Shown here: positions 1 to 31,640 of the stretch, piece by piece
Numbering within the stretch: position 1 is the first letter of the stretch
Layout of the letters: each line of letters starts with the position of its first letter
NCBI GenBank assembly: GCA_951406725.2
Contig: OX597820.1
Coordinates: 84,754,001 to 84,818,000 of the forward strand
DNA from: Octopus vulgaris
Taxonomy: Eukaryota
Reading direction: 5' to 3'
DNA: 64,000 nt
Position numbers and translations under genes: made by a program
The notes under the pieces: model-generated
Seen by the model: only the letters and a program-made list of their open reading frames with translations
Database searches by the model: none
What the model was told of the DNA's origin: nothing

Positions 1-309
1 ATTGTGCTGTGAAGAACTTTAAGAATTGTGAGAACTGTTATATAGGGGAGTGTTTTGCCTCCGAAGTTTGAACAATTTTTACCAATTTTACACCAATTTT
101 TGTGGAAGTTGTGTTCCATTTGCGGCGTTCCGGGTTCAATTTAGGCCGGGAGTACCGAATGGCCAGAAGGTTTTTGCTGTGTTATTGACTTTCTTTTTAA
201 CTTTATTTGACTTTCTCCTTTTTGTTCATTGTGACTTTCTTCTGATTTCTTTTTCTTCTCGCTTTTTAAGTTTTATTTTGAATATATTTAAAAAAAAGAA
301 AAAAAAAAC

Positions 310-1587
310 ATGGCAAGGAAAAATGACAAAATTTTGGAATGGGAGATCATACCGCCTAAAAAGTGGTTAAAAGACCGTGAAGATAGGACGGTGGTGTTGA
401 GAACCTACTCCAAGGCACTCGACACCATCGCCCTGTTCGAAAAGACGGCAATTGAAAAGGAGTTGGCAGAGTATTTGCCAACAATTAAATTCATTTCCAG
501 GGGTGTCAAATATGCAACGGTGTGGTTGCTATTTGACACCCCTGAAGAGGCTTGCAAATTTGCTAGTAAACCTTTGGCGAGTAAGGAAATTTTATTCCTG
601 CCCACGTACCAAAAAAAGAGACTGACGAAAGCTTGGATTTGCGGGCTGCCACTCGGGATAGAACCCGAGTGGATACAGGAGACTATCCGCCGGGGTTTGG
701 GTAGCAGCGAAACTAAGCTCCTTAATGTGAAATTTCTTCCTGCGCTGCTTGGGTTGGGTCAAAAGCAATTTTGACCCTTTGGACCCAATCAGCCAATCTG
801 GTTCTTCCAGATTTTTTGAAAATGACCGGGTGCAGGTACCCGGTGATGCTTGAGGGTCGCCCCCCTAAGTGTCATCGGTGCTTGGAGTCCGGCCATATAA
901 AGAAGATCTGTCCCCGGGAACAAAATAGGATCCCGGAACAGTTAAGTGAAACCCCTGTAGAAGAGGGAAAGATAACGGCCGAGGAAGCAGAGGACTCCTC
1001 AAACAGAGGCCGAAAGAGGAAGGTGAGCAACAATGGGTGCTCACCAAAGGACACTAGGGATGAGGAGGGAAAGGCGAATCTTCCGGCCACGGAGGAGACG
1101 CACCCTCCCTCAGTTGAAAAGAAAAAAAAAGAAAAAGAGGAAGAGAAACGGGACATTACTGGCTGTCGGTGACATAGCACCGGAATGTCCCGGAACTACG
1201 TCGGTTGGGGTTGTGCCACCGACAGGAGAATAAATACCGTTGGCGGGAACTGTGCCGCCAACGAAAGAATTGAGTATCCCGCACCCGAGCAAAAACGAGG
1301 TATTGATCCTCTTCCATAGAGGCGGAGAGATTGAAAAGGTGAAGGAAAAGCACCACAAGGGAGCACCTTTAGCCTTCACACAGGACCCCAAATGGCCTCC
1401 GCAGGTAGCTGTGGAGGCCGTGGCGTTCGACGTGACGCTTGGGCTGAAGGAGCTCAATGAGGATTATAGCTTGGTCCCGGGTGACGCTAACTCGGAACTC
1501 GATTACGTTCTGAGGGAGGCATGGTGGATGGTGGAGGATGCGGGCACAAGTTATTTCGAGGACGAGTCAAATTGTGATACGACTTGA
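310..1587 (+). pseudogene. Disrupted ORF1 (gag-like, CCHC zinc knuckle) of an L1/Tx1-like non-LTR retroelement
   Basis: ORFs 310-774, 771-1172, 1033-1233 and 1240-1587 join into one ~425-codon frame via two compensating frameshifts and one TAA (1231-1233). The product contains PVMLEGRPPKCHRCLESGHIKKICP (CX2CX4HX4C), followed by a K/E-rich tail. It is GC-richer than the flanks and has a T-rich leader. Confidence 0.7.
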
Positions 1588-12984: not shown

Positions 12985-14051
12985 AGATAAAAATGGGGAG
13001 GCAGAACGAACGAATGGAGATAATAAAAAATGTTTAAGGATTGAGGTAGTAAAAATGTTTAATGATCGTTTATTTAGCACTTACATCTTACGTTAGAGAA
13101 CCATCATGATAAATCTCTGAAGTGTGATGTAATATTACTTAATCTGGCCTCTCAGCCCTCTGTGCTGGTGTACTTACTTGTGATAGTCTTGTGGTTACAG
13201 TCGTTCTAAATATATTTCTTGTGTTACCGAGTAGACATAGTTGCTCCAATGATAGTGCGGTCTACAAATAATGATCACTGATTTCAAAAGAACTTTTATT
13301 GTAACATTACCTAGAAAAGGATTCTACAGTAACAGGCGAAGACTATATTGAAATCATGGCCAACAAGTCAAAATTAGCATTCTCATTTAAATGCCGAGGT
13401 CTCTTGTCAAATGAAGGTTATTGTTGCATAACAATGCACGTTCACATGCGAGGACCTATATCATTGAAACCGTTGAAAGCTTTAAAAAATGTTTTTCTTT
13501 AAGTCGGTAACCAGAGTAATTGTAATATTGCCATATGATTAGTCACCTGTTACATGCCAATACATTTTCTCTAAATTATGACTATTATGAATAACACGTA
13601 AATTGGAACTTTCTGAAATTACTGTCGAGTGAGAACATTAGATATTTCTGTCCCATTTTTCTGCATGTTAGTGCTTAATGTGAATATGAGCGAATACACA
13701 CACACATACACACAAACATACATGAATGTAAATCTGTAGTGCATAGTATGAATTCTGGCAAATCATAGAAAAGCTCATCTAATACGTCTAATGTTTATAC
13801 AATATAGTAATGTAATAGGGAGGAGTATAATGCAAAGTCCTGTGCAAATGCGATCCAGAAGATGCAGGCTATGTACTCATTTCATGAGGCGTGTATAAAG
13901 CAGAAAAATCAGCAGTTATGAGAGGTAAATATAGTCATATATCAATTGATGAAATATATTCGCCTCTCATAACTCCAGACATTTCATTTTCTATACATAT
14001 GATACATAAATATATATGGGTCTGTGTATAAGTGTGTGTGTGTGTGTGTGT

Positions 14052-14084
<33 letters not shown>

Positions 14085-14296
14085 GCATACAGACAGACAT
14101 ATGTGTACAGATTATGCAAAGATGGACAGGGCAAGTAAAGTGTCAACAGCAAGCTAGGTGAATGTAAGGTCAGTGGATTAACAAGGCGTTAGAAGAGAGG
14201 ATTGTGTGTGTTTGCGTGTGTATATTTACACACGCAAACACACACAATCCTATTTATACACACATACACACACACAAACACACACAATCCTATTTA

Positions 14297-14341
<45 letters not shown>

Positions 14342-14867
14342 GGTTGTGTGAGTATGCGCGTGTTTGCATGCGTATATTTAATTAGTACTTTTCTCTCTGA
14401 CAACTTTTGTAATTTATCCTCAGTTGCTTGCATTGAAACCCTTGTTAATTAAGTAATACACAATTTGGAAACATTAATTTTCCGCGTGTATTTGATTACT
14501 TTAGAACTCCAAATTCACACTCTTCTAAATTATTGGTTAATATAAATGTCTTTTAAGAACTTAAATTAGATAAATCTTTACATTTCATATATTTTAACAT
14601 CTATTGCTTTTTTATATATTTTAACATCTATTGCATCTATTGTTTTTTCTTATGTTTATTTAGTTACTCACCATTTGGAAAAAAAAAACGTATATTAAGC
14701 CTTCTAACAACAAAGAGGATTCTTAAATTCATTCAAATTCGTCAAGATTTTCGTTGCAGATTTGCAGTCTTCATGCTGACATAGATCAATAACATCTGCT
14801 TGAAAGATTTAGAACCATAGGATATGGACATAGTTTTGTATCCATTTGTTTTATATATTCATTTCTA

Positions 14868-15275
14868 TTGCAGTGGCTGTGTGGTAAGAAACTTGCTTCC
14901 ATGCCACATGGTTCAGTGTTCAGCCCTACTACATGACAACTTCGGCAAGTGTCTTCTACTATAGCCTTGGTTTAACCAAAAAAAGGGGTTTTGATGAACA
15001 GGAACTGAAAGGATCCTGTCGTAAATGTGTGTGTGTGCGCGTGCGTGTGCATATATGTGTGTTTTTTTGGTATTTGCGTTTGTCTCTACCACCGCTTAAT
15101 AAACGGTGTGTTTCAGTACCGTAATTTAGTGGTTCGACAAAACAAAATGATAGAATAAGTACCAGGCTGTAAGAAAAAATTCCTTGTCTTAATTCATTCG
15201 ACTAATAATTCTTCAAGATGCTCCCGCATAGCCGTAGTCCTATGACTGACAGAAGTAAAACATAAACGATAAGAT
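14868..15275 (+). mobile_element. SINE family A, diverged full-length copy
   Basis: GTGGCTGTGTGGTAAGAAACTTGCTTCC...CCACATGGTTC...GGCAAGTGTCTTCTACTATAGCC...GATAGAATAAGTACC, matching 1933-2351. Confidence 0.75.
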
Positions 15276-15462
15276 TTATACACATGTGCATTTATATACA
15301 TGGGATTTATTTTCGATCCGTCATGTCAGTCATTTTATGTTACTGTTCAGTCATTTAACTCCTGTTTTGCCCTTGCACATACATTTCTATGTATAAATGT
15401 GTGCATAACTATATAATTCAATATGTCTTATAAATATCTCATCTTATTCTGGAAGATGCTCT

Positions 15463-15577
15463 CTTGGGCAAGTGTCTTCTGCTAGAACCTCGGGTCGACG
15501 AAAGCCTTGTGAGTGCATTTGGTAGGCGGAAACTGAAAGAAGACTGTCGTATATATGTATATATGTATATATATATA
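15463..15577 (+). mobile_element. SINE family A fragment
   Basis: CTTGGGCAAGTGTCTTCT...GGAAACTGAAAGAAGACTGTCGTATAT matches ~1987-2080. Confidence 0.7.
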
Positions 15578-16289
15578 CCTTGCTTATTTAGTCTTTGGGT
15601 AAGAATCATGCGTCAGAAACCATCCATTTTCAGGCAATGTTATGTCCTGCTGTTTTTAGTTACACATTATATGATTATATTGAATCTGACACGCACATTT
15701 TCATTGATTGACTTCGTTTAAGAATTTACAGTGTGGTATTTAAGAAATATATTGCCAGCAAAGGTAACTTTTCTTAGTGTACACTGGAATCAAAGTGATT
15801 TCCCGAGATAAATTGTCAACCGGTGAATGATAAACGAGTTACTCTTCACTGAACACGATTGCATTCGCGGTGCGGGATATGAAGAAGGTTAGTCGAATAA
15901 CAACGCTAATTGAAAACTGAGAAATGTTGGCTTTTATTCTGAATCAACGTATCTTGTGAAACATCAATAGTTTCAATGGATTGATCTATCTGTTCTATTT
16001 ATATGATAGATTTTGTGTCAAATATATTTACCTGTAATAGATCTCAGTGTATAAACAAGTAGATATGAACATGTTAGATCCAGTATTTGAAATACTTATA
16101 TAGTGATACAAGCACAGCTATGTAGCTGATAATTTCACTTAAGTCTAGGCATGTAACATCTAGATTTCGCTGGTTTAAAATGTGGAATAGAGAAACCAAA
16201 ACTCTGCAACAACCAGTGACACATACATATGTACACACACACACACGCACACGCAAACCCCGATATGCACATACATATATCTATCTATC

Positions 16290-16361
<72 letters not shown>

Positions 16362-16365
<4 letters not shown>

Positions 16366-18500
16366 TAAAAACGGTAACATAACAAAACAAAGAAAGAGAC
16401 CTCAATATTATGTAAATAGAGGAAATTTATCTATAAAATAATATGTTACAATTACTCAATAGTCAAGATAAAAATCTGAGTTTCAGATGCCGAAGTGGAA
16501 ATCCACAACAGCATCTGTTCGGTTATCTGGCCATCTGAAAAACGCTATGAAAAATACCGTTATATAAAGGGAAATTACTGTCTTATAATTCTGCTACTTA
16601 TATAAAATAAGATTAAAAGTTCATAGTAAACACATAAACATGCCCTCACTTTAACCGCTAATACAAATGGACCAGCACAGGATCGTTTTAGGAAGGATAG
16701 TATCCAATTAAGGAAATACTTTGGACTTAGTATAACTATAGATACTAACCTGACGGTTGTCAAGTTCCTAGACGTTTCCTTAAATCTATATAAGAATATT
16801 TATAAGCCTTATAGGAAGCCCAATGATAGACTTAGTTATATTAATGTAGGTTCATGCCATCCCCCTATAGCATTCAAAAGTTTAGTTAAAAATATTAGTA
16901 AGAGAATTTCTAGCCTCTCCTCCGATAAGGACATTTTAATAGCGTTGCCCCAGTTTATAATAAGGCTTTAAAAGATAGTGGTTTTAGCGAAAAAATAAAA
17001 TATACACCTGTTACTAGCCCAACAGTAAAGAAGAGGAAAAATAGAAATAGGAAGATCATCTGGTTTACATCTCCTTACTCACACGAGGTGACCTTCAATA
17101 TAGGTAAATATTTCTTAACACTGATAGATAGACATTTTCCAGTTAACCATACTTATAGGAAACTCTTCAATAAACACAATTTAAAAATTAGTTTTATTTC
17201 AACTACCAATTATAAAAATATAATCAGACATACCACACAAAAACCACAGGAAAGCAGCTGTTCATGTAGGAATAAACAAATTGTGCCCGGTAAATGGAGC
17301 TTGCATGTCAGTGGACTCTAAAGACACCGTTTCGACGAAGAAATACGTGGGCCTTACAGAGGGTAATTTCAAGGCCTGGTACAATAACCACACCTTGAGT
17401 TTTAGGCACTGGAACAAAAGAAAAGCGACACAATTATCTAATCATATTTGTTCTTTAAAAGGTAAAGGTGTCGATTATAACATCCATTGGAAGATTTTGG
17501 CCAAATGTAAGCCCTACACTAACGGCAGCTGAAAGTGCGGTCTATGCGACATGGAGAGATGGCTTATCTGGAAAAGCAGCTTAGACCCTACTACATGTCT
17601 AAACTCAAGGACATAACTTTTCGGTTCATGCCCAAATGTGACAAAATATTTGTTACGTTTTTGGTCCCTTAAAGAAAACAGATAGAACTTGCTTTCTATA
17701 TTATGTCCCAAAAAGTTTTTTATCTCATTATACCTTTTATTATTTCATATATCTTTATATTTTCATACATAATTTTTTTCTGTACTCTTCTATCCTGCAT
17801 TTTTTCCTGTGCCTATATAGACGTGTATATAGATTCATTTGTACACGTGTGTGAATATGTATGATGTGTGCGTGTGTGCGGGCATAAGAATGCATATATA
17901 TATATAGACGTTTTTACTTAGTAATTTTCTTTTTTTAGTTCATTTTCTGTTTATGCGTGTGTGTGTATGTGTATATAAACATGTGCGGGTATGTACATAT
18001 ATGGGCGTGTGTGTGTATGAGTGCATAAGGGCATGTCCGTATATGAACGTGATTTTTATTCTTTGTATACTTCCTTATGTTTTTTTCTGTTACCTTTAAC
18101 CATGGTTTTTCATGTGCTTGTGCGTATATGGACGTATGTATGAACTTTTTCGGTACGCGCCTGTGTGCGTATGAATTTGTATATATATGCGTATATATTT
18201 GGCGGAAAATGCGAGTGAGGTGTGCACGTTTTCATAGTGACGTATTAGTAGGCACGTGTATCCGCGAATGCACATGCGAGTGTATGACTAGCCATGTTTA
18301 AGTGTTTACTATGAACTTTTAATCGTATTTTATATAAGTATCAGAATTATAAGACAGTAATTTCCCTTCATATAACGGTATTTTATCATAGCGTTTTTCA
18401 GATGGCCAGATAACCGAACAGATGGTGTTGTGGATTTCCACTTCGGCATCTGAATCTCTGAGTTTTATCTTGACCATTGAGTAATTGTAACATACTATTA
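16362..18500 (+). mobile_element. 5'-truncated Penelope-like element with inverted 5' pLTR and 3' pLTR, flanked by (TA)n
   Basis: 16650-17660 encodes KFLDVSLNL...YKPYRKPNDRLSYINVGSCHPP (RT thumb) and CSCRNK..CPVNGAC...YVGLTEGNFKAWYNNHTLSF...WKILAKCKPY (GIY-YIG) with frameshifts. 16440-16642 is the reverse complement of 18293-18497. Confidence 0.9.
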
Positions 18501-18698
18501 TATATATATATATATATAGATATATATATATATATGGGTGTGTGTGATTGTGTATAGAAGAATATATTAATAAAAGAATTCCAACCTTGTCTGATTTTCA
18601 CGTTTTATTTACAATCTTATAATGATATATTATAAGATAATATATTATAATTGAATAAAATAAAATGAAATAGTAGAATGTTAAATATTCATTCTGAT

Positions 18699-18743
18699 TG
18701 AACTAGTACTTTCATGCATTGAATTCTGCAATCTTCGGGTTCA
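18699..18743 (-). ncRNA. Type-I HHR-like motif (left arm copy)
   Basis: Reverse complement of the motif at 19106-19150. Confidence 0.6.
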
Positions 18744-19105
18744 TGTAGTAGTGTTGACAGTCATGCTTCACAATTTTTGACTGTAGCAAGATGAGTGATT
18801 CTGTGCTATAAATACAGCTGGGTAGGCTCCAGAGTGCTAGGTTTTGCAAACTGTATTCTGACCAATCAGTGTGTAGTATCACTCAATTACTTAAGCTGAT
18901 TGGTTGGTTGAGCTGATTGGTTTAGGCATCACGCTTTGTTGGACAGGTCAAGAGTCCTGTAATTGAGTGATACTACACACTGATTGGTCAGAATACAGTT
19001 TGCAAAACCTAGCACTCTGGAGCCTACCCAGCTGTATTTATAGCACAGAATCACTCATCTTGCTACAGTCAAAAATTGTGAAGCATGACTGTCAACACTA
19101 CTACA

Positions 19106-19150
19106 TGAACCCGAAGATTGCAGAATTCAATGCATGAAAGTACTAGTTCA
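19106..19150 (+). ncRNA. Type-I HHR-like motif (CCGAAGA core variant)
   Basis: TGAAC-CCGAAGA-T-TGCA-GAATTCAA-TGCA-T-GAAA-GTAC-TA-GTTCA. Helix I TGAAC/GTTCA, helix II TGCA/TGCA, palindromic helix III AGTACT, UA cleavage site. Confidence 0.62.
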
Positions 19151-19279
19151 ATCAGAATGAATATTTAACATTCTACTATTTCATTTTATTTTATTCAATT
19201 ATAATATATTATCTTATAATATATCATTATAAGATTGTAAATAAAACGTGAAAATCAGACAAGGTTGGAATTCTTTTTA

Positions 19280-19328
<49 letters not shown>

Positions 19329-19332
<4 letters not shown>

Positions 19333-20223
19333 CATAAGGGACTAAAGCCATCTGAATATGGCTAGGGACAGGGCAGGGTGGTGGGGGCGTTACTGTTGCA
19401 TTTAGCCCCAGGCGAACATCGACGTCACCAGATAGGCCCGACACCGTCACGGTGTCCTTTAACCTGCAAAGGGAGGTAATTCCCCGATGAAGCGGAAACC
19501 ACACACGGACCATGGGTTCAAGGTGTATTGCCTATCGTCGGCGTGTGGTAGGCTTCCGCTTCCTCGACGAATTCTCACTCTGCAGGATATTCATATATAG
19601 ATTTTCAAGCAAAATACATTTGCTGATTTCGAAAATCTGTTCGAAAGCAATAATAATTCTCTAAAAGAGATATAGACAGTAACTGCTCGATAACATAAGG
19701 GACTAAAGCCATCTGAATATGGCTAGGGACAGGGCAGGGTGGTGGGGGTGTTACTGTTGCATTTAGCCCCAGGCGAACATCGACGTCACCAGATAGGCCC
19801 GACACCGTCACGGTGTCCTTTAGTTCGCCTGGGGCTAAATGCAACCATGGTCCGTGTGTGGTTTCCGCTTCATCGGGGAATTACCTCCCTTTGCAGGTTA
19901 AAGGACACCGTGACGGTGTCGGGCCTATCTGGTGACGTCGATGTTCGCCTGGGGCTAAATGCAACAGTAACACCCCCACCACCCTGCCCTGTCCCTAGCC
20001 ATATTCAGATGGCTTTAGTCCCTTATGTTATCGAGCAGTTACTGTCTATATCTCTTTTAGAGAATTATTATTGCTTTCGAACAGATTTTCGAAATCAGCA
20101 AATGTATTTTGCTTGAAAATCTATATATGAATATCCTGCAGAGTGAGAATTCGTCGAGGAAGCGGAAGCCTACCACACGCCGACGATAGGCAATACACCT
20201 TCTCTTTTAGAGAATTATTATTG

Positions 20224-20225
<2 letters not shown>
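19329..20225. mobile_element. Retrozyme-like element: 361-nt unit as ~1.4 tandem copies (minus sense) plus one inverted monomer
   Basis: AACATAAGGG recurs at 19331 and 19692 (period 361). 19845-20201 is a 357-nt reverse-complement monomer. Short rearranged fragments at 19823-19844 and 20201-20225. (TA)n on both sides and an HHR-like motif in the unit. Confidence 0.75.
19502..19547 (-). ncRNA. Type-I HHR-like motif (CCGACGA core, GAAC variant)
   Basis: Minus strand reads CACACG-CCGACGA-TAGG-CAATACA-CCTT-GAAC-CCATGG-TC-CGTGTG. Helix I is 6 bp and extends by GAAGCGGAAGCC/GGTTTCCGCTTC. Palindromic CCATGG in helix III. Confidence 0.62.
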
Positions 20226-20294
<69 letters not shown>

Positions 20295-20295
20295 C

Positions 20296-20396
<101 letters not shown>

Positions 20397-20559
20397 TGCG
20401 TGCTTGTGGGCGTGCGGGTATATATACAGGCTATTCGGAATATTTACAGTCAAGGTTGTTATGTTCAGATTAGCCAGACGAGGTTTGGAAATCTTTGTAA
20501 GGTATGATGCAATCTATTATGAATACAATAAGTAAAGATTTCTAATGAAATTGTGAACT

Positions 20560-21150
20560 CCTCTGATATATATATATATATAATTATTTAAATCTGAAAT
20601 TATTCCTTCAAAGTATTTATTAATTCTTATAAGAGGATTATACAATTTTTAGTAGAATTGCCCTTTCCATTTTCAAGGCAAAGAACGCATTAGGCATTTA
20701 GGTATGTTAATCAGTTGATGAATAGTCTCTTGAGGAATTTGTCGCCAAGTGTCATGCAATAATCTCAAAGGATATGGCTTTGAAGATGCCTTCTTGCTCT
20801 TTTTATGAAGCGTCCTGTCTATAATGTACCCCGACGTGTTCAATGGGTTTCATATCTGGTGACAGGCGTAGCCATGGAAGCCTTTTAATGCCATACTCTT
20901 CCAACAAATCTTGCGTCATTTTAACCATTTTAGCCATAAAAAAAAGAGTCTTCTTTAAGGATTTCACCACCGGAGAAGATTGGAAGGATTTCTTTCGGTA
21001 AAATGGACATATACTTATCTCACACTCCCATTGACCATTGCTCCAAATTGCACCATGGACCATCACTGAATAGTTGCCATATTTCATTGTTGGCCGCATT
21101 ATTTTCGCATCAAATTCCTGAGCACAGCCTTCAGAAAGGCCAATTAATCT
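20560..21150 (-). mobile_element. Tc1-family transposase fragment (DDE region)
   Basis: PTMKYGNYSVMVHGAIWSNG and WLRLSPDMKPIEHV (cf. WPxxSPDLNPIE) within ORF 20803-21399. Confidence 0.75.
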
Positions 21151-21266
21151 AACTTTCAAACACATTATGATAAATCTATAAATCTGATAAGGTAGGAAAG
21201 CGCTAGGTGTGTAAATAAAATATAGATAAAAGGTAAAGAAAAAATACACATAAGCATCTAGCTTAT

Positions 21267-21331
<65 letters not shown>

Positions 21332-21335
<4 letters not shown>

Positions 21336-22050
21336 GGTTTGACAAAATAATGGAAACGCCTTTTTCAAACAAATTTATTTTAATATAGGGTAGGGCCAAC
21401 TTTGGCAGTAATTACAGCTTGAATTCTACGAGCTATGGACTCGTACTAAGTTTGAATCGTTTCCAGAGGACTTTTTGGTCTATTGTGCAGCTAAAGCAGT
21501 CTCTAATTCTTGTAGTGATGATGCTGGAGGATATCGACTCCTTACTTGTTTTTTTCTAAAATGCACCATAAATTTTCAACAATATTGATATCTGGGGACT
21601 GTGGCGGCCAGATAAGATGTTCAACCTGACTAGAATATTACTCGTGCCATTCAGTAACAAATTTAGCTGCGGGAATTGGTGTATTATGATCCTGAAAGAT
21701 CGTGTTTCTCATCGGAAACAGTTCTGCAACCGTAGGTTGCATTTGATGAGATAAAATGCTTAATTAGTCTCGACTATTAATTCTGCCAAGAATGGAAACT
21801 ATTTGCCGGCGGATATCCAAGATATAGACCCCACCGATCATCATAGATCCTCCTCCCTGGTTAACAGTTACAGGAAGGAGTCTGGATCAAATGATTCTTT
21901 TGGCTGTCTCCACACGCATACTCTGCCGATTGTCAGAAATCAGGCAAAGGCTGACTCGTTCGAGTAAATAACATTTTCGCCTGATCTAAGGACCGATTCT
22001 GTAGCCTTTTACCCCATTCATTAGCAGTTTTGCAATAGAGACTTTAGACA
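21332..22050 (-). mobile_element. Tc1-family fragment with one TIR abutting (TA)n
   Basis: Minus-strand HLIWPPQSPDINIVENLW at ~21565-21620. Terminus TACACGGTTTGACAAAATAATGGAAAC. Resembles the 10124-11020 copy. Confidence 0.8.
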
Positions 22051-22974
22051 TGATACCAGTTTACAAACTAAATAGAGGGATCGATCTGTCCAGCAAAAAT
22101 GCTGCATGGTAGTGCCCTAGCATACTGCAATCCAATGCCTGAAATAAATAAAACATAAAATTCAAAATGTAAAAAGAACAATGCATGGTGTAGGGAATGC
22201 AATGCATAACCTGAACGCAGATAATATTTTTCGCATAATATAGTATTGCCTATATTGCGTTGCTTACCCATTTTAAGTGAGCTGAATTATTTACTTTTTC
22301 AAGTATCATTATAATAGCTATTTATACTCTGGTGAAATTATGAAATCAACTCATAGTAAATGAAACACTCGAATCCATCACCTTACACACGCGCGCGCGC
22401 TAGCAAACTCACACACAGTCGCATGTTTATGTATGTATTAATGTATGTTTGAAGATAATCAAGCCAAAGTTTTAACATTTCAAGCCACTCACCCAATGAG
22501 TATTTATGACAAATTTGGTGAAATTCCGTTCCGATGTTTTCCACTAAGTTTGCCAAATTAAAGACAATGTGACACATACGAGTGATTACAATGACCCTGC
22601 TTTCGCTTATGCGCACAGCGTAAATATATACGGCTATAATTTGTCTGCTGCTATATAAGTGTGAAATTCTATATGTAAAATGTGTGCTATCGGTTGGACA
22701 TTTCATCCCTGTATTTTTACTAATTGTCAGCAAATTACTCTTATACTAAAGTATTCATTGTAGTTGTAACTCTCAGTTTGATGTGAATAAATCAAACACC
22801 CTATATTTCTTGGTTTTCAACAAGTATCTTGCGTTCTCGGACCTATTAGAGTTGCATGTTATCACATTCTTTGACATAGATCGATTTTATTATTGACTCA
22901 TGACACAGATATATCATTGCAACGTAATTGGATTTGCACACGTGGCTAAAGTAAACTTCCATTAAATTCCTTAA

Positions 22975-24236
22975 TGTATCAGTCTGAGTAAAAAGTAAGC
23001 AAAGTTTTAGAAATTGAAATACATCACAATGTATTTTAACAATGCGGAAATTTTATTCATCAAACTAAGTACCATTACAATCAACGCGCTTTTGCCAACG
23101 AGATACAAGTTTGTTTATTCCGGAGATATAAAACCTTGATTTCTGGAGTTAATGAACTCTTTGAAAGCACTTTCAGCATCGGTTTGAACTTTTAAACACC
23201 TTCTGTTGCAAAGGAACCATCGAAGTGCTTGAAAAAGTGGTAGTCAGTAGAAAGGGGAGTAAGCGTGTTGGGGAAGAACTTCGTAGTCAAGTTCGCTCAA
23301 CTTCTGGAGCGTCATTAGTGAATCGTATGGCCGAACATTGTCATGACGTTTGGCCCGCTTCTGTTGACCAGTCTGCGTCGGAGAAGTAGCAGTTTTTCGT
23401 ATATTGTGGCGATTGTATGGCAATCTGTTTCTGCAGTAATGGTTTTTCCGGGTTTTAAGAAGTTATAGTGGATACGTCACCAAACAATCACTATAACCTT
23501 CTTTTTGAAGAACTCGAGTTTAGGCAAGGTTTTCGAGGCTTTATTTTGGTTCAACCGCTACGAAGAACGGTTTTTTCTTATTGTACCGGGTAAACTTTTC
23601 ATCGCAACTACCAAACGGTCGAGAAATGGATCGTTGTGGATACGGAGAAGAAGCGACGCGCAAATTTTAAACCTACGCATTTTCTAATTTTCATTGAAAT
23701 CGTGTGGTACCCATTTGTGCAGCTTTTTTGATTTTCCGATCGCATGCGAATGACTGCAAGCACTTTTCTGGCTGACTTGCAGCTCTTTTGCCAGTTTTGG
23801 AGTGGTTTTGCGTGGATTTTTCTCAATGAAGGTTTGTAATTGACCGTCATCAATACCAGATGGGCACCCACTACGCTCAGGTCCCCACTGCGAAATCGTT
23901 TTAACTATTTTCGAGCTGACCATTCACTGGTAATTTCCTCACCAAACATTTCCTTTACATCGCGAGCGGTTTCACTTCCTTTACACCCTTTTTTTTTTTT
24001 TGAAGTTGAATAACAAAATTACTCGAATATTGCGCTTTGGCTTTTCTATTTCAGATGATTGTAACAACTGTGAAAAACATATCAATGTTAATTTATTGAT
24101 GCATTTGTGCAAATCTATGTCTATATTATCAGACAATTGCAAAAGGTTGTTTAAAAAAATTCAACGTTTGCAAAACTCTGGTATACATTCTTCATGGTTC
24201 AAAACTTTGCTTACTTTTTACTCAACCTGATAAATA
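22975..24236 (-). mobile_element. Full-length degenerate mariner element (~1.26 kb)
   Basis: TIRs TATCAGTCTGAGTAAAAAGTAAGCAAAGTTTT and AAAACTTTGCTTACTTTTTACTCAACCTGATA. Transposase remnants RSGCP and KKLHKWVPHDF (WVPHEL motif). Confidence 0.88.
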
Positions 24237-30986: not shown

Positions 30987-31026
<40 letters not shown>

Positions 31027-31640
31027 TTTTCCTTGGTGTTGGCCAGATTGGAGCCATCACGAGTATAACCAGCCGAAATTGCAAGTATAATCTGGAACTC
31101 GACTGAGGATAGAAAACTCCGAATGACCCGTCCTTGGATTCCTTGTATCGTCTGTCTGAATATTTTGTCTTCCTGATTTTGTTTCAAAATACAAAAATGG
31201 GTCAAGAACGCAAAACATCCAGACAGTTAGGTGAAACAAAATAAGGAAGACTAAATATTTAGACAGACGATACAACGAAAACAAGGACGGATCATTCGGA
31301 GTTTTCTTTCCTCAGTCGAGCTCCAGATTCTCTTTGCAATTTCGGCTGGTTATACTCGCGATGGCTCCAATCTTGACAGCCCTAAGGAAAAGTTAGCTAC
31401 GAATATTACATTCCGGCGAATGTATACGAAACAAGGACGGAAAAAAAACATAAATGTTACACTCGAGTATAACCAGCCGAAATTGCAAAGATAATCTGGA
31501 ACTGGACTAAGGATAAAAAAATCCGAATGATCCCTCCTTGTTTTCCTTGTATCGTCTGTCTGGATATTTTGATTTTATTCTTTTGTTTCACCAAACTGTT
31601 TGGATGCTTTGCCTTCTTGTCCCATTTTTGTATTTTTATA
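31027..31640. repeat. (TA)n-embedded element with three copies of a ~160-210-bp unit (+,-,+)
   Basis: CGAGTATAACCAGCCGAAATTGCAA occurs at ~31060 and ~31463 and as the reverse complement at ~31335-31359. It forms a foldback over 31027-31393. Confidence 0.85.

What the first reader, a model, noticed from the sequence alone, without database searches (positions are those of the whole stretch)
19106..19547. Recurrent CCGANGA-U...U-GAA hammerhead variant in two unrelated elements
Seen: two elements with no other evident similarity both have C at core position 4, a U.U apposition at the base of helix II and a 6-nt palindrome in helix III (AGTACT and CCATGG). The PLE pLTR at 18408-18470 also starts CCGAA and has U before GAA. 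Inference: recurrence argues against random decay and suggests a lineage-specific HHR subtype with compensating changes.
Basis: partly seen in the sequence, partly recalled or inferred. Interest (0 to 1): 0.75.

Follow-up and report, generated by a model that had tools for sequence, protein, structure and literature searches.

The report
Recurrent C4 hammerheads in Penelope elements
Two unrelated young jumping elements in this animal genome carry a predicted self-cutting RNA (hammerhead) in which one normally fixed core letter is C instead of U across the whole subfamily; the change arose separately several times and is not tied to the neighbouring U-U mismatch, so it is likely a tolerated variant that standard searches miss, not a new compensated ribozyme type.

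Summary
Motif A (+19106-19150) lies in the pLTR of a young, tandem, 4,271-bp Neptune-like Penelope element (about 1,500 motif copies). Motif B (-19547..19502) belongs to a young 360-bp retrozyme (about 1,500 copies). C4 and U.U are subfamily states, not decay, and helices I-III covary across 14 related retrozyme ribozymes (11 of 15 pairs).

The 'compensated subtype' reading fails. Both elements have close sister subfamilies with canonical CUGA/UUGA and the same U.U. C4 also occurs with A-U, C.U and G-C at the base of helix II. In B, C4 is nested among U4, U.U relatives and arose apart from C4 in other retrozymes; in A it marks the younger subfamily.

Both features are in print separately: U.U in an active axolotl retrozyme ribozyme, CCGA in active viroid-like ribozymes. 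I did not find family-wide C4 in animal Penelope elements or retrozymes in the papers searched; Lünse 2017 was unreadable. Cleavage is untested. About 180 A stubs end at a probable start site upstream of an uncut ribozyme; few end at the cut. The scan had already noted family B on other DNA.

The parts
19106..19150 (+). Motif A: type I hammerhead, core CCGAAGA (C4 at 19112), U.U at 19118/19135, 4-nt palindrome inside A15.1-U16.1, predicted cut between 19145 and 19146. Lies in the inverted, tail-less arm of the insertion.
   Evidence: 40 of 40 scored genome copies identical over 191 nt
18699..18743 (-). Identical mirror copy of motif A in the main, tail-bearing arm
18514..18961 (-). Main arm of a 5'-truncated insertion of Neptune-like Penelope element A (3' UTR, pLTR and tail) in a TA repeat
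   Evidence: 99.1% to the 4,271-bp unit from L031
18959..19277 (+). Inverted pLTR arm of element A; perfect 319-bp inverted repeat with 18572-18890
19065..19066 (+). Probable transcription start of the A pLTR, about 45 nt upstream of C3 (inferred from piled-up 5' ends of stubs, some with an extra G)
   Evidence: 180 genome matches with a changed letter 10 nt upstream, most ending here, against 26 at the cut site
19502..19547 (-). Motif B: type I hammerhead of a 360-bp retrozyme, core CCGACGA (C4 at 19540), U.U at 19534/19520, 6-nt palindrome inside 15.1/16.1, predicted cut between 19508 and 19507. This copy has a private A15.1-to-C change at 19516 and is likely dead.
19331..19819 (-). Main arm of the retrozyme B insertion, about 1.36 units
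   Evidence: joint going back 361 nt in 4 of 4 runs laid
19840..20201 (+). Inverted arm of the retrozyme B insertion; holds only the two split halves of the ribozyme
18409..18469 (+). Motif C: decayed copy of a C4 hammerhead in the pLTR of a Hydra-like Penelope element; the family has a G-C-closed helix II plus a bulged pyrimidine before G12
16643..18499 (+). Decayed 3' part of Hydra-like element C (end of RT, CxCX5C-type linker, GIY-YIG remnant, long 3' UTR)
   Evidence: clade features from PMC8557442 section 11; clade call by motif only, no tree
16437..16642 (-). Inverted pLTR copy of element C with a second decayed C4 hammerhead

Best explanation
Both motifs are type I hammerhead folds in the ends of young Penelope-system elements; they are predicted to cut slowly and mainly as dimers, and U4-to-C is likely a tolerated change that arose separately in several masters. 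Shown: A is the pLTR of an intact RT/GIY-YIG element in 4,271-bp tandems, B is a 360-bp non-coding tandem repeat, the helices covary, and position 4 and the 10.1/11.1 pair vary independently between subfamilies. Inferred: transcription starts just upstream of the ribozyme. A lone ribozyme cannot close its short palindromic helix III and mostly stays uncut, so the RT copies through it to the RNA 5' end and leaves stubs. Two copies on a tandem transcript pair through the palindrome and cut, and a host ligase would close a unit circle that the RT copies repeatedly into homogeneous arrays. Because cutting is limited by dimer formation and little is needed, mild core changes (C4, U.U, A-U) would be nearly neutral and drift in and out.
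For: Element identity: (RVT_1 E 2e-6, below its curated cut-off; GIY-YIG E 3e-5, above it). Covariation: 96% of cells paired, 11 of 15 pairs with two-sided changes, 0 of 500 shuffles as high, slid controls 20-54% paired (14 sequences chosen by me). Descriptor hits: 88 in loci L094-L173 against 0-1 in 5 shuffles (loci picked from pattern hits). Independence: A first 100 matches = 76 C4 with loop C, 22 U4 with loop T, 2 C4 with loop T, 0 U4 with loop C, all U.U because the pattern required it. B first 100 = 82 CC, 18 UU, 0 mixed. A tree of 165 nt downstream of the ribozyme nests B1/B2 (C4) among U4, U.U relatives (split support 94) and apart from the C4 families F/E (98-100). Dimer: helix III self-duplex -4.8 (A), -11.2 (B), -7.4 (C) kcal/mol, while the monomer fold is 5-17 kcal/mol above the MFE. 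The B palindrome covaries, CCATGG to CCTAGG. Arrays are homogeneous with array-specific variants: A units in L032 share 6 and in L033 up to 9; B within-locus 1.95 against between-locus 17.2 differences (the latter inflated by divergent sister families). In print: U.U ribozyme HHR_Amex2 cuts, better as a dimer (PMC7229834 section 15); CCGA type III ribozymes of ZV1 and bvdl786 cut in vitro (bioRxiv 10.64898/2026.09.16.752053 passages).
Against: No cleavage or circle was observed. 5' ends do not pile up at the predicted cut (A 26 matches; B 25 matches; boundaries spread over 0 to -10), whereas 180 matches sit at the upstream start site with the ribozyme intact, in both C4 (16 of 30) and U4 (6 of 30; 7 unclassified, 1 intermediate) copies. 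Homogeneous arrays could also be copied from a homogeneous genomic master, and L055 is heterogeneous. U4C 'considerably decreases activity in vitro' (PMC3088659 passage), and CUGA mutants had low activity in a type III scan (PMC9901934 passage). The C4 plus U.U combination has not been assayed in anything I read. In context the B ribozyme helices have pairing probabilities of only 0.1-0.3 as a monomer.
Confidence: 0.68

Rival explanations
1. The C4 ribozymes are inactive or nearly so; the fold is inherited from active U4 ancestors, and the elements spread from uncut read-through RNA.
For: No pile-up at the cut. Many stubs copied through an intact ribozyme. Naiads thrive without canonical hammerheads (PMC8557442 passages). 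C4 is recent in A and B.
Against: C4 is kept across divergent sister families whose helices covary (C, C2, C3; E1-E3). The rest of the core is intact in each young subfamily. Uncut stubs are just as typical of the U4 subfamily. Natural CCGA ribozymes cut.
Confidence: 0.14
2. C4 is positively selected as an attenuator: slower cutting preserves circles or multimers and so favours longer arrays and faster spread.
For: The youngest expanding subfamily carries C4 in both A and B, although T-to-C creates a decay-prone CpG. Direct tandems occur in 14 of 28 C4 loci against 0 of 13 UU loci of B (Fisher p = 0.0013; counted by eye, test).
Against: The comparison is confounded by U3 and age. U4 sister families also form tandems (L125, L136, L109). 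Uncut stubs are not enriched in C4 copies. Two recent events cannot separate selection from drift.
Confidence: 0.12
3. One reading: C4 and U.U are mutually compensating and define one lineage-specific subtype.
For: In the retrozyme superfamily C4 occurs only with U at 11.1 (3 of 6 such lineages against 0 of 3 G-C lineages), and U.U precedes C4 in B. The C4/U11.1 pattern is enriched (3590/3559 against control 441/421; position 7 restricted to exclude A) while C4/C11.1 is barely so (1164/1174 against 905/850).
Against: U.U stands with U4 in A2, B3, FU, M and H. C4 stands with G-C in C2, K and L159 (K and L159 rest on 1-3 copies). Counts are dominated by a few families and the controls are not dinucleotide-matched. 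No second-site rescue of CUGA mutants was seen in a pairwise scan. A weak one-way permissive effect of U11.1 is not excluded.
Confidence: 0.06

Closest known systems
Type I hammerheads in Penelope-like element pLTRs (Cervera & de la Peña 2014, PMC4209133; read parts 1-2 of 4 and supplement file 2 parts 1-2 of 3; supplement file 1 not available)
   Same: Position in the pLTR, type I topology, palindromic dimer-type helix III. Fig. S3 already lists Hydra and D. willistoni ribozymes with U and U flanking helix II and 6-7-nt palindromes, and a shrimp element with A-U.
   Different: None of the 56 aligned representatives has C4, but the consensus and search required CUGANGA. No G10.1-C11.1 pair with 9b insertion in A or B.
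Metazoan non-LTR retrozymes, axolotl HHR_Amex2 / Rtz_353 (Cervera & de la Peña 2020, PMC7229834; passages and section 15; supplement too large to read)
   Same: About 350-360-nt non-coding tandem unit, U.U mismatch at the base of helix II, 2-bp helix III with tetraloop, dimer-enhanced cleavage.
   Different: B has C4. The position-4 letter of HHR_Amex2 is only in a figure I could not see. Circles and cleavage are shown for axolotl, not here. B insertions carry Penelope-type inversions.
Natural CCGA hammerheads of viroid-like RNAs: PLMVd variant, citrus CtaHVd-LR1 variants, zeta virus ZV1, betaviroid-like RNAs (PMC3088659 section 8 and passages; PMC9608096 passages; bioRxiv 10.64898/2026.09.16.752053 passages)
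   Same: U4C, recurrent in unrelated replicons, active in vitro for ZV1(-) and bvdl786.
   Different: Those in the preprint are type III ribozymes of RNA replicons; here type I, dimer-type, fixed in genomic retroelement subfamilies of thousands of copies.
Neptune and Hydra clades of Penelope-like elements (Craig et al. 2021, PMC8557442; passages, section 11, supplement searched for 6 terms)
   Same: A has a CX4CxxC linker, DKG and a CCHH-type GIY-YIG. C has a CxCX5C-type linker. Both insert in TA repeats with tandem and inverted pLTRs.
   Different: The paper reports canonical CUGANGA ribozymes. A has a separate upstream 454-codon frame overlapping the RT frame.

Membership tests
Hammerhead ribozyme (type I) | Three helices around the core in type I order | tested here: met
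   covariation
Hammerhead ribozyme (type I) | Core C3, G5, A6, G8, A9, G12, A13, A14, A15.1-U16.1, H17 | tested here: met
   Family state of A (41 of 41) and B (77 of 78); not met in the window's own B and C copies
Hammerhead ribozyme (type I) | U4 of the CUGA turn | tested here: not met
   C4 in A1 and B1/B2; natural active exceptions in print, so filed as a core variant
Hammerhead ribozyme (type I) | Match to an Rfam hammerhead model | tested here: not met
   No hammerhead among 70 hits to E 10 in window 14000-24000; 0 hits at gathering in 6 loci, including two canonical-core sisters, so the models are insensitive to this class
Hammerhead ribozyme (type I) | Site-specific self-cleavage after N17 | not testable with these tools
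   Only contigs were available; insertion ends give no pile-up at the cut
Penelope-like element, Neptune-like (element A) | RT followed by Cys-rich linker and C-terminal GIY-YIG in one frame | tested here: met
   775-codon frame; Pfam
Penelope-like element, Neptune-like (element A) | Tandem pLTRs, inverted 5' copy, tail on one end | tested here: met
   4,271-bp tandems, window structure, tails
Penelope-like element, Neptune-like (element A) | RT groups with Neptune in a phylogeny | not tested
   Clade assigned from motifs only; Nematis not excluded
Non-LTR retrozyme (element B) | Non-coding 170-400-nt tandem unit with one type I hammerhead per unit | tested here: met
   360-nt units, arrays up to 12
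Non-LTR retrozyme (element B) | Expressed as linear and circular RNA | not testable with these tools
   A joint going back 361 nt in contigs fits tandem DNA as well as circles
   All four combinations of C4/U4 with U11.1/C11.1 occur as family states

The most novel reading that the evidence does not exclude
In dimer-type hammerheads with long palindromic helix III, the U-turn position 4 and the first pair of helix II are released from their usual constraints, and U4C is repeatedly selected in expanding Penelope elements and retrozymes as a rate dial that keeps circles or multimers intact. CUGANGA-based surveys would then have missed the most active ribozyme-bearing retroelements of whole genomes, and the natural C4/U4 sister pairs give ready-made matched tests.
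Probability: 0.15. Interest if true: 0.62.

Novelty: new variant of a known kind. Interest (0 to 1): 0.36.

Why it matters
Published searches for Penelope and retrozyme hammerheads use CUGANGA descriptors (PMC4209133, PMC8557442, and by its stated models the 2026 retrozyme preprint). In this genome they would miss thousands of motifs, including the youngest Penelope element and retrozyme found here. The matched natural pairs (A1/A2, B1/B3, F/FU) isolate position 4 in otherwise identical ribozymes. They let one ask how much cleavage these elements need, which is an open question for Penelope transposition. The chemistry itself is not new.

Tried and rejected
- Obligate C4/U.U compensation: rejected.
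- 'C4 always goes with U before G12', my own early idea: rejected by C2, K, L159 and the older C subfamily.
- Coupling of positions 3 and 4 (CC against UU in B): a U3-C4-A8 pattern was not enriched (3247/3410 against control 4724/4623), but C3 with U4 is common, so no rule follows.
- Purine at position 4 as a family state: most hits proved to be decay or inversion junctions in the 20 loci fetched; one small family stays unresolved.
- CpG decay as the source of U4 in A: rejected, 0 of 76 loop-C copies have U4.
- Cleavage-site pile-up: none.
- Rfam: no hammerhead hit.
- Sequencing runs: no RNA holder listed. The laid runs were contigs only and show U4 and C4 relatives in other samples; they say nothing on ends or expression.
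- The loose pattern gave uninterpretable counts.
- The non-circularly permuted hammerheads of PMC10085705 (passages) do not apply; these motifs fit type I order.
- Lünse et al. 2017 and Nelson & Uhlenbeck 2008 were not held. Lünse may already list such variants.
- Paper searches: (CCGANGA, 0 hits).
- PMC3376415 (passages), PMC6765202 (passages) and the 2026 retrozyme preprint (parts 1-2 of 5; supplements closed) gave no C4 statement.

Full report
Observation. The window shows two type I hammerhead folds with core CCGANGA and U opposite U at the base of helix II: A at +19106-19150, mirrored at -18743..18699, and B at -19547..19502. A strict descriptor gives 3 hits in the window and none in 200 shuffles. 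The two elements and the neighbouring pLTR (C) share no sequence beyond chance. The palindromes differ in register. The window's B copy has lost A15.1 (77 of 78 copies keep it). The genome has 2.8 Gb in 227 contigs.

What the elements are. A is the pseudo-LTR of an intact element in 4,271-bp tandems, with a 454-codon frame and a 775-codon RT/GIY-YIG frame. Its linker and endonuclease motifs fit Neptune as described in PMC8557442 (motif call only). A pattern spanning its ribozyme has 1,515 matches. B is a non-coding 360-bp repeat in direct and inverted arrays of up to 12 units, with 1,478 matches. C is a decayed Hydra-like element. In the window, A and B are truncated insertions whose inverted arms form 319-bp and 303-bp duplexes, so these particular copies are unlikely to fold as ribozymes (inference).

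Is the fold under selection? B belongs to a superfamily of 350-360-nt retrozymes, at least B, J, Q, F, P and E by alignment. Across 14 representative ribozymes that I chose, 96% of cells pair, 11 of 15 pairs change on both sides, no shuffle of 500 reaches this, and slid registers pair at 20-54%. The helix III palindrome changes while staying palindromic. This is the signature expected of dimer pairing, and the self-duplex energies (-4.8, -11.2, -7.4 kcal/mol) fit that, since the monomer folds are unfavourable.

Are C4 and U.U coupled? No. In A the first 100 matches split into 76 C4 with one loop letter, 22 U4 with the other, 2 mixed C4 and 0 mixed U4, all with U.U. The U4 copies are visibly older (distances inflated by flanks, and the C4 set was chosen for identity). 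Contigs of two other runs show mostly U4 with U.U unchanged, and two keep C4. In B, 82 of the first 100 are CC and 18 UU at positions 3-4. A tree of the sequence downstream of the ribozyme nests the C4 subfamilies among U4, U.U relatives (support 94) and separates them from the C4 families F and E (17 rows, 165 nt, weak inner support in F/E). Other families give C4 with A-U (D, E), C.U (F, I) or G-C (C2, K, L159), and U4 with U.U (FU, M, H). So U.U came first in B and probably in A, and C4 arose at least three times.

How it likely works. 5' boundaries of copies do not gather at the predicted cut (26 matches for A, 25 for B, spread over about 10 nt). They gather strongly about 45 nt upstream of the A core (180 matches). 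The 30 examined were 170-285-nt stubs, 28 with a boundary there, and came from both C4 and U4 subfamilies. Several carry an extra G, as expected from a capped start (inference). Thus a lone 5' ribozyme often stays uncut whatever the letter at position 4. Long arrays are homogeneous with array-specific variants, as expected if dimer cleavage and ligation give unit circles that the RT copies repeatedly; copying from homogeneous genomic masters is not excluded. Low, dimer-limited demand would explain why mild core changes are tolerated. Cleavage, ligation and circles are all untested here.

Comparison with print. Penelope pLTR hammerheads with palindromic helix III are known, and the 2014 alignment of 56 motifs holds U.U-flanked and A-U examples but no C4, under a search that required CUGANGA. 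U10.1.U11.1 and U4C are each noted as natural (PMC3088659). The axolotl retrozyme ribozyme with U.U cuts, better as a dimer. CCGA recurs in viroid-like RNAs and cuts in vitro. A pairwise scan found no rescue of CUGA mutants except the 3-8 swap. Nine searches found no report of family-wide C4 in animal Penelope elements or retrozymes. Lünse 2017, the most relevant paper, and two supplements could not be read. Earlier scan notes describe family B and its core variants on other DNA; they are not independent support.

Verdict. A real, repeated core variant of a known ribozyme in known element types. It is useful because standard descriptors miss it and because it offers matched natural pairs for kinetics. 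It is not a compensated subtype. Novelty: new variant of a known kind; interest 0.36.

Noticed in passing
window 19065-19066 (+); loci L257-L286: About 180 copies of element A begin at one position about 45 nt upstream of the ribozyme, some with an extra G; probable capped start site of the pLTR promoter, giving 220-270-nt solo stubs.
   Followed up: partly
L031 3356-4717 and 1122-3446 (-): Element A has a 454-codon upstream frame with no Pfam match that overlaps the RT frame by about 90 nt in another phase, the same in all arrays read; possible frameshift or intron.
   Followed up: no
L146-L151, L164-L167: B sister subfamilies with U3.G8 and U3-A8 cores and a changed palindrome; seen only as single or inverted pairs (0 of 13 loci with direct tandems).
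   Followed up: partly
window 19340-19353 (-) and L095, L109, L136, L152: A conserved hairpin just before the 3' end of most retrozymes of the superfamily, with a 10-nt match upstream of the family C ribozyme (E about 1); possible RT recognition signal.
   Followed up: no
L237-L241: Small repeat family with A or G at position 4, a palindromic 9-nt helix II region and weak helix I; unclear whether it is a ribozyme.
   Followed up: partly
L225, L226, L229, L230, L115: Inversion junctions of family D fall inside the 5' core strand (partly a selection effect of the search).
   Followed up: no
L174-L198: Many A copies have small deletions in the GAAA/helix III strand, five of them the same single-G loss; RT slippage, a subfamily or assembly error.
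   Followed up: no
L055: A six-unit B array mixing haplotypes of different subfamilies; possible heteromultimer or template switching.
   Followed up: no
window 292-1172 (+): Two overlapping frames that resemble a LINE ORF1 with a zinc knuckle (resemblance recalled, not searched).
   Followed up: no
window 31025-31636: Two further long inverted repeats (87-89% complementary), likely older Penelope-type inversions.
   Followed up: no
L104 7426-9626 (+): Two long intronless frames (431 and 326 codons) rich in hydrophobic stretches, not identified.
   Followed up: no
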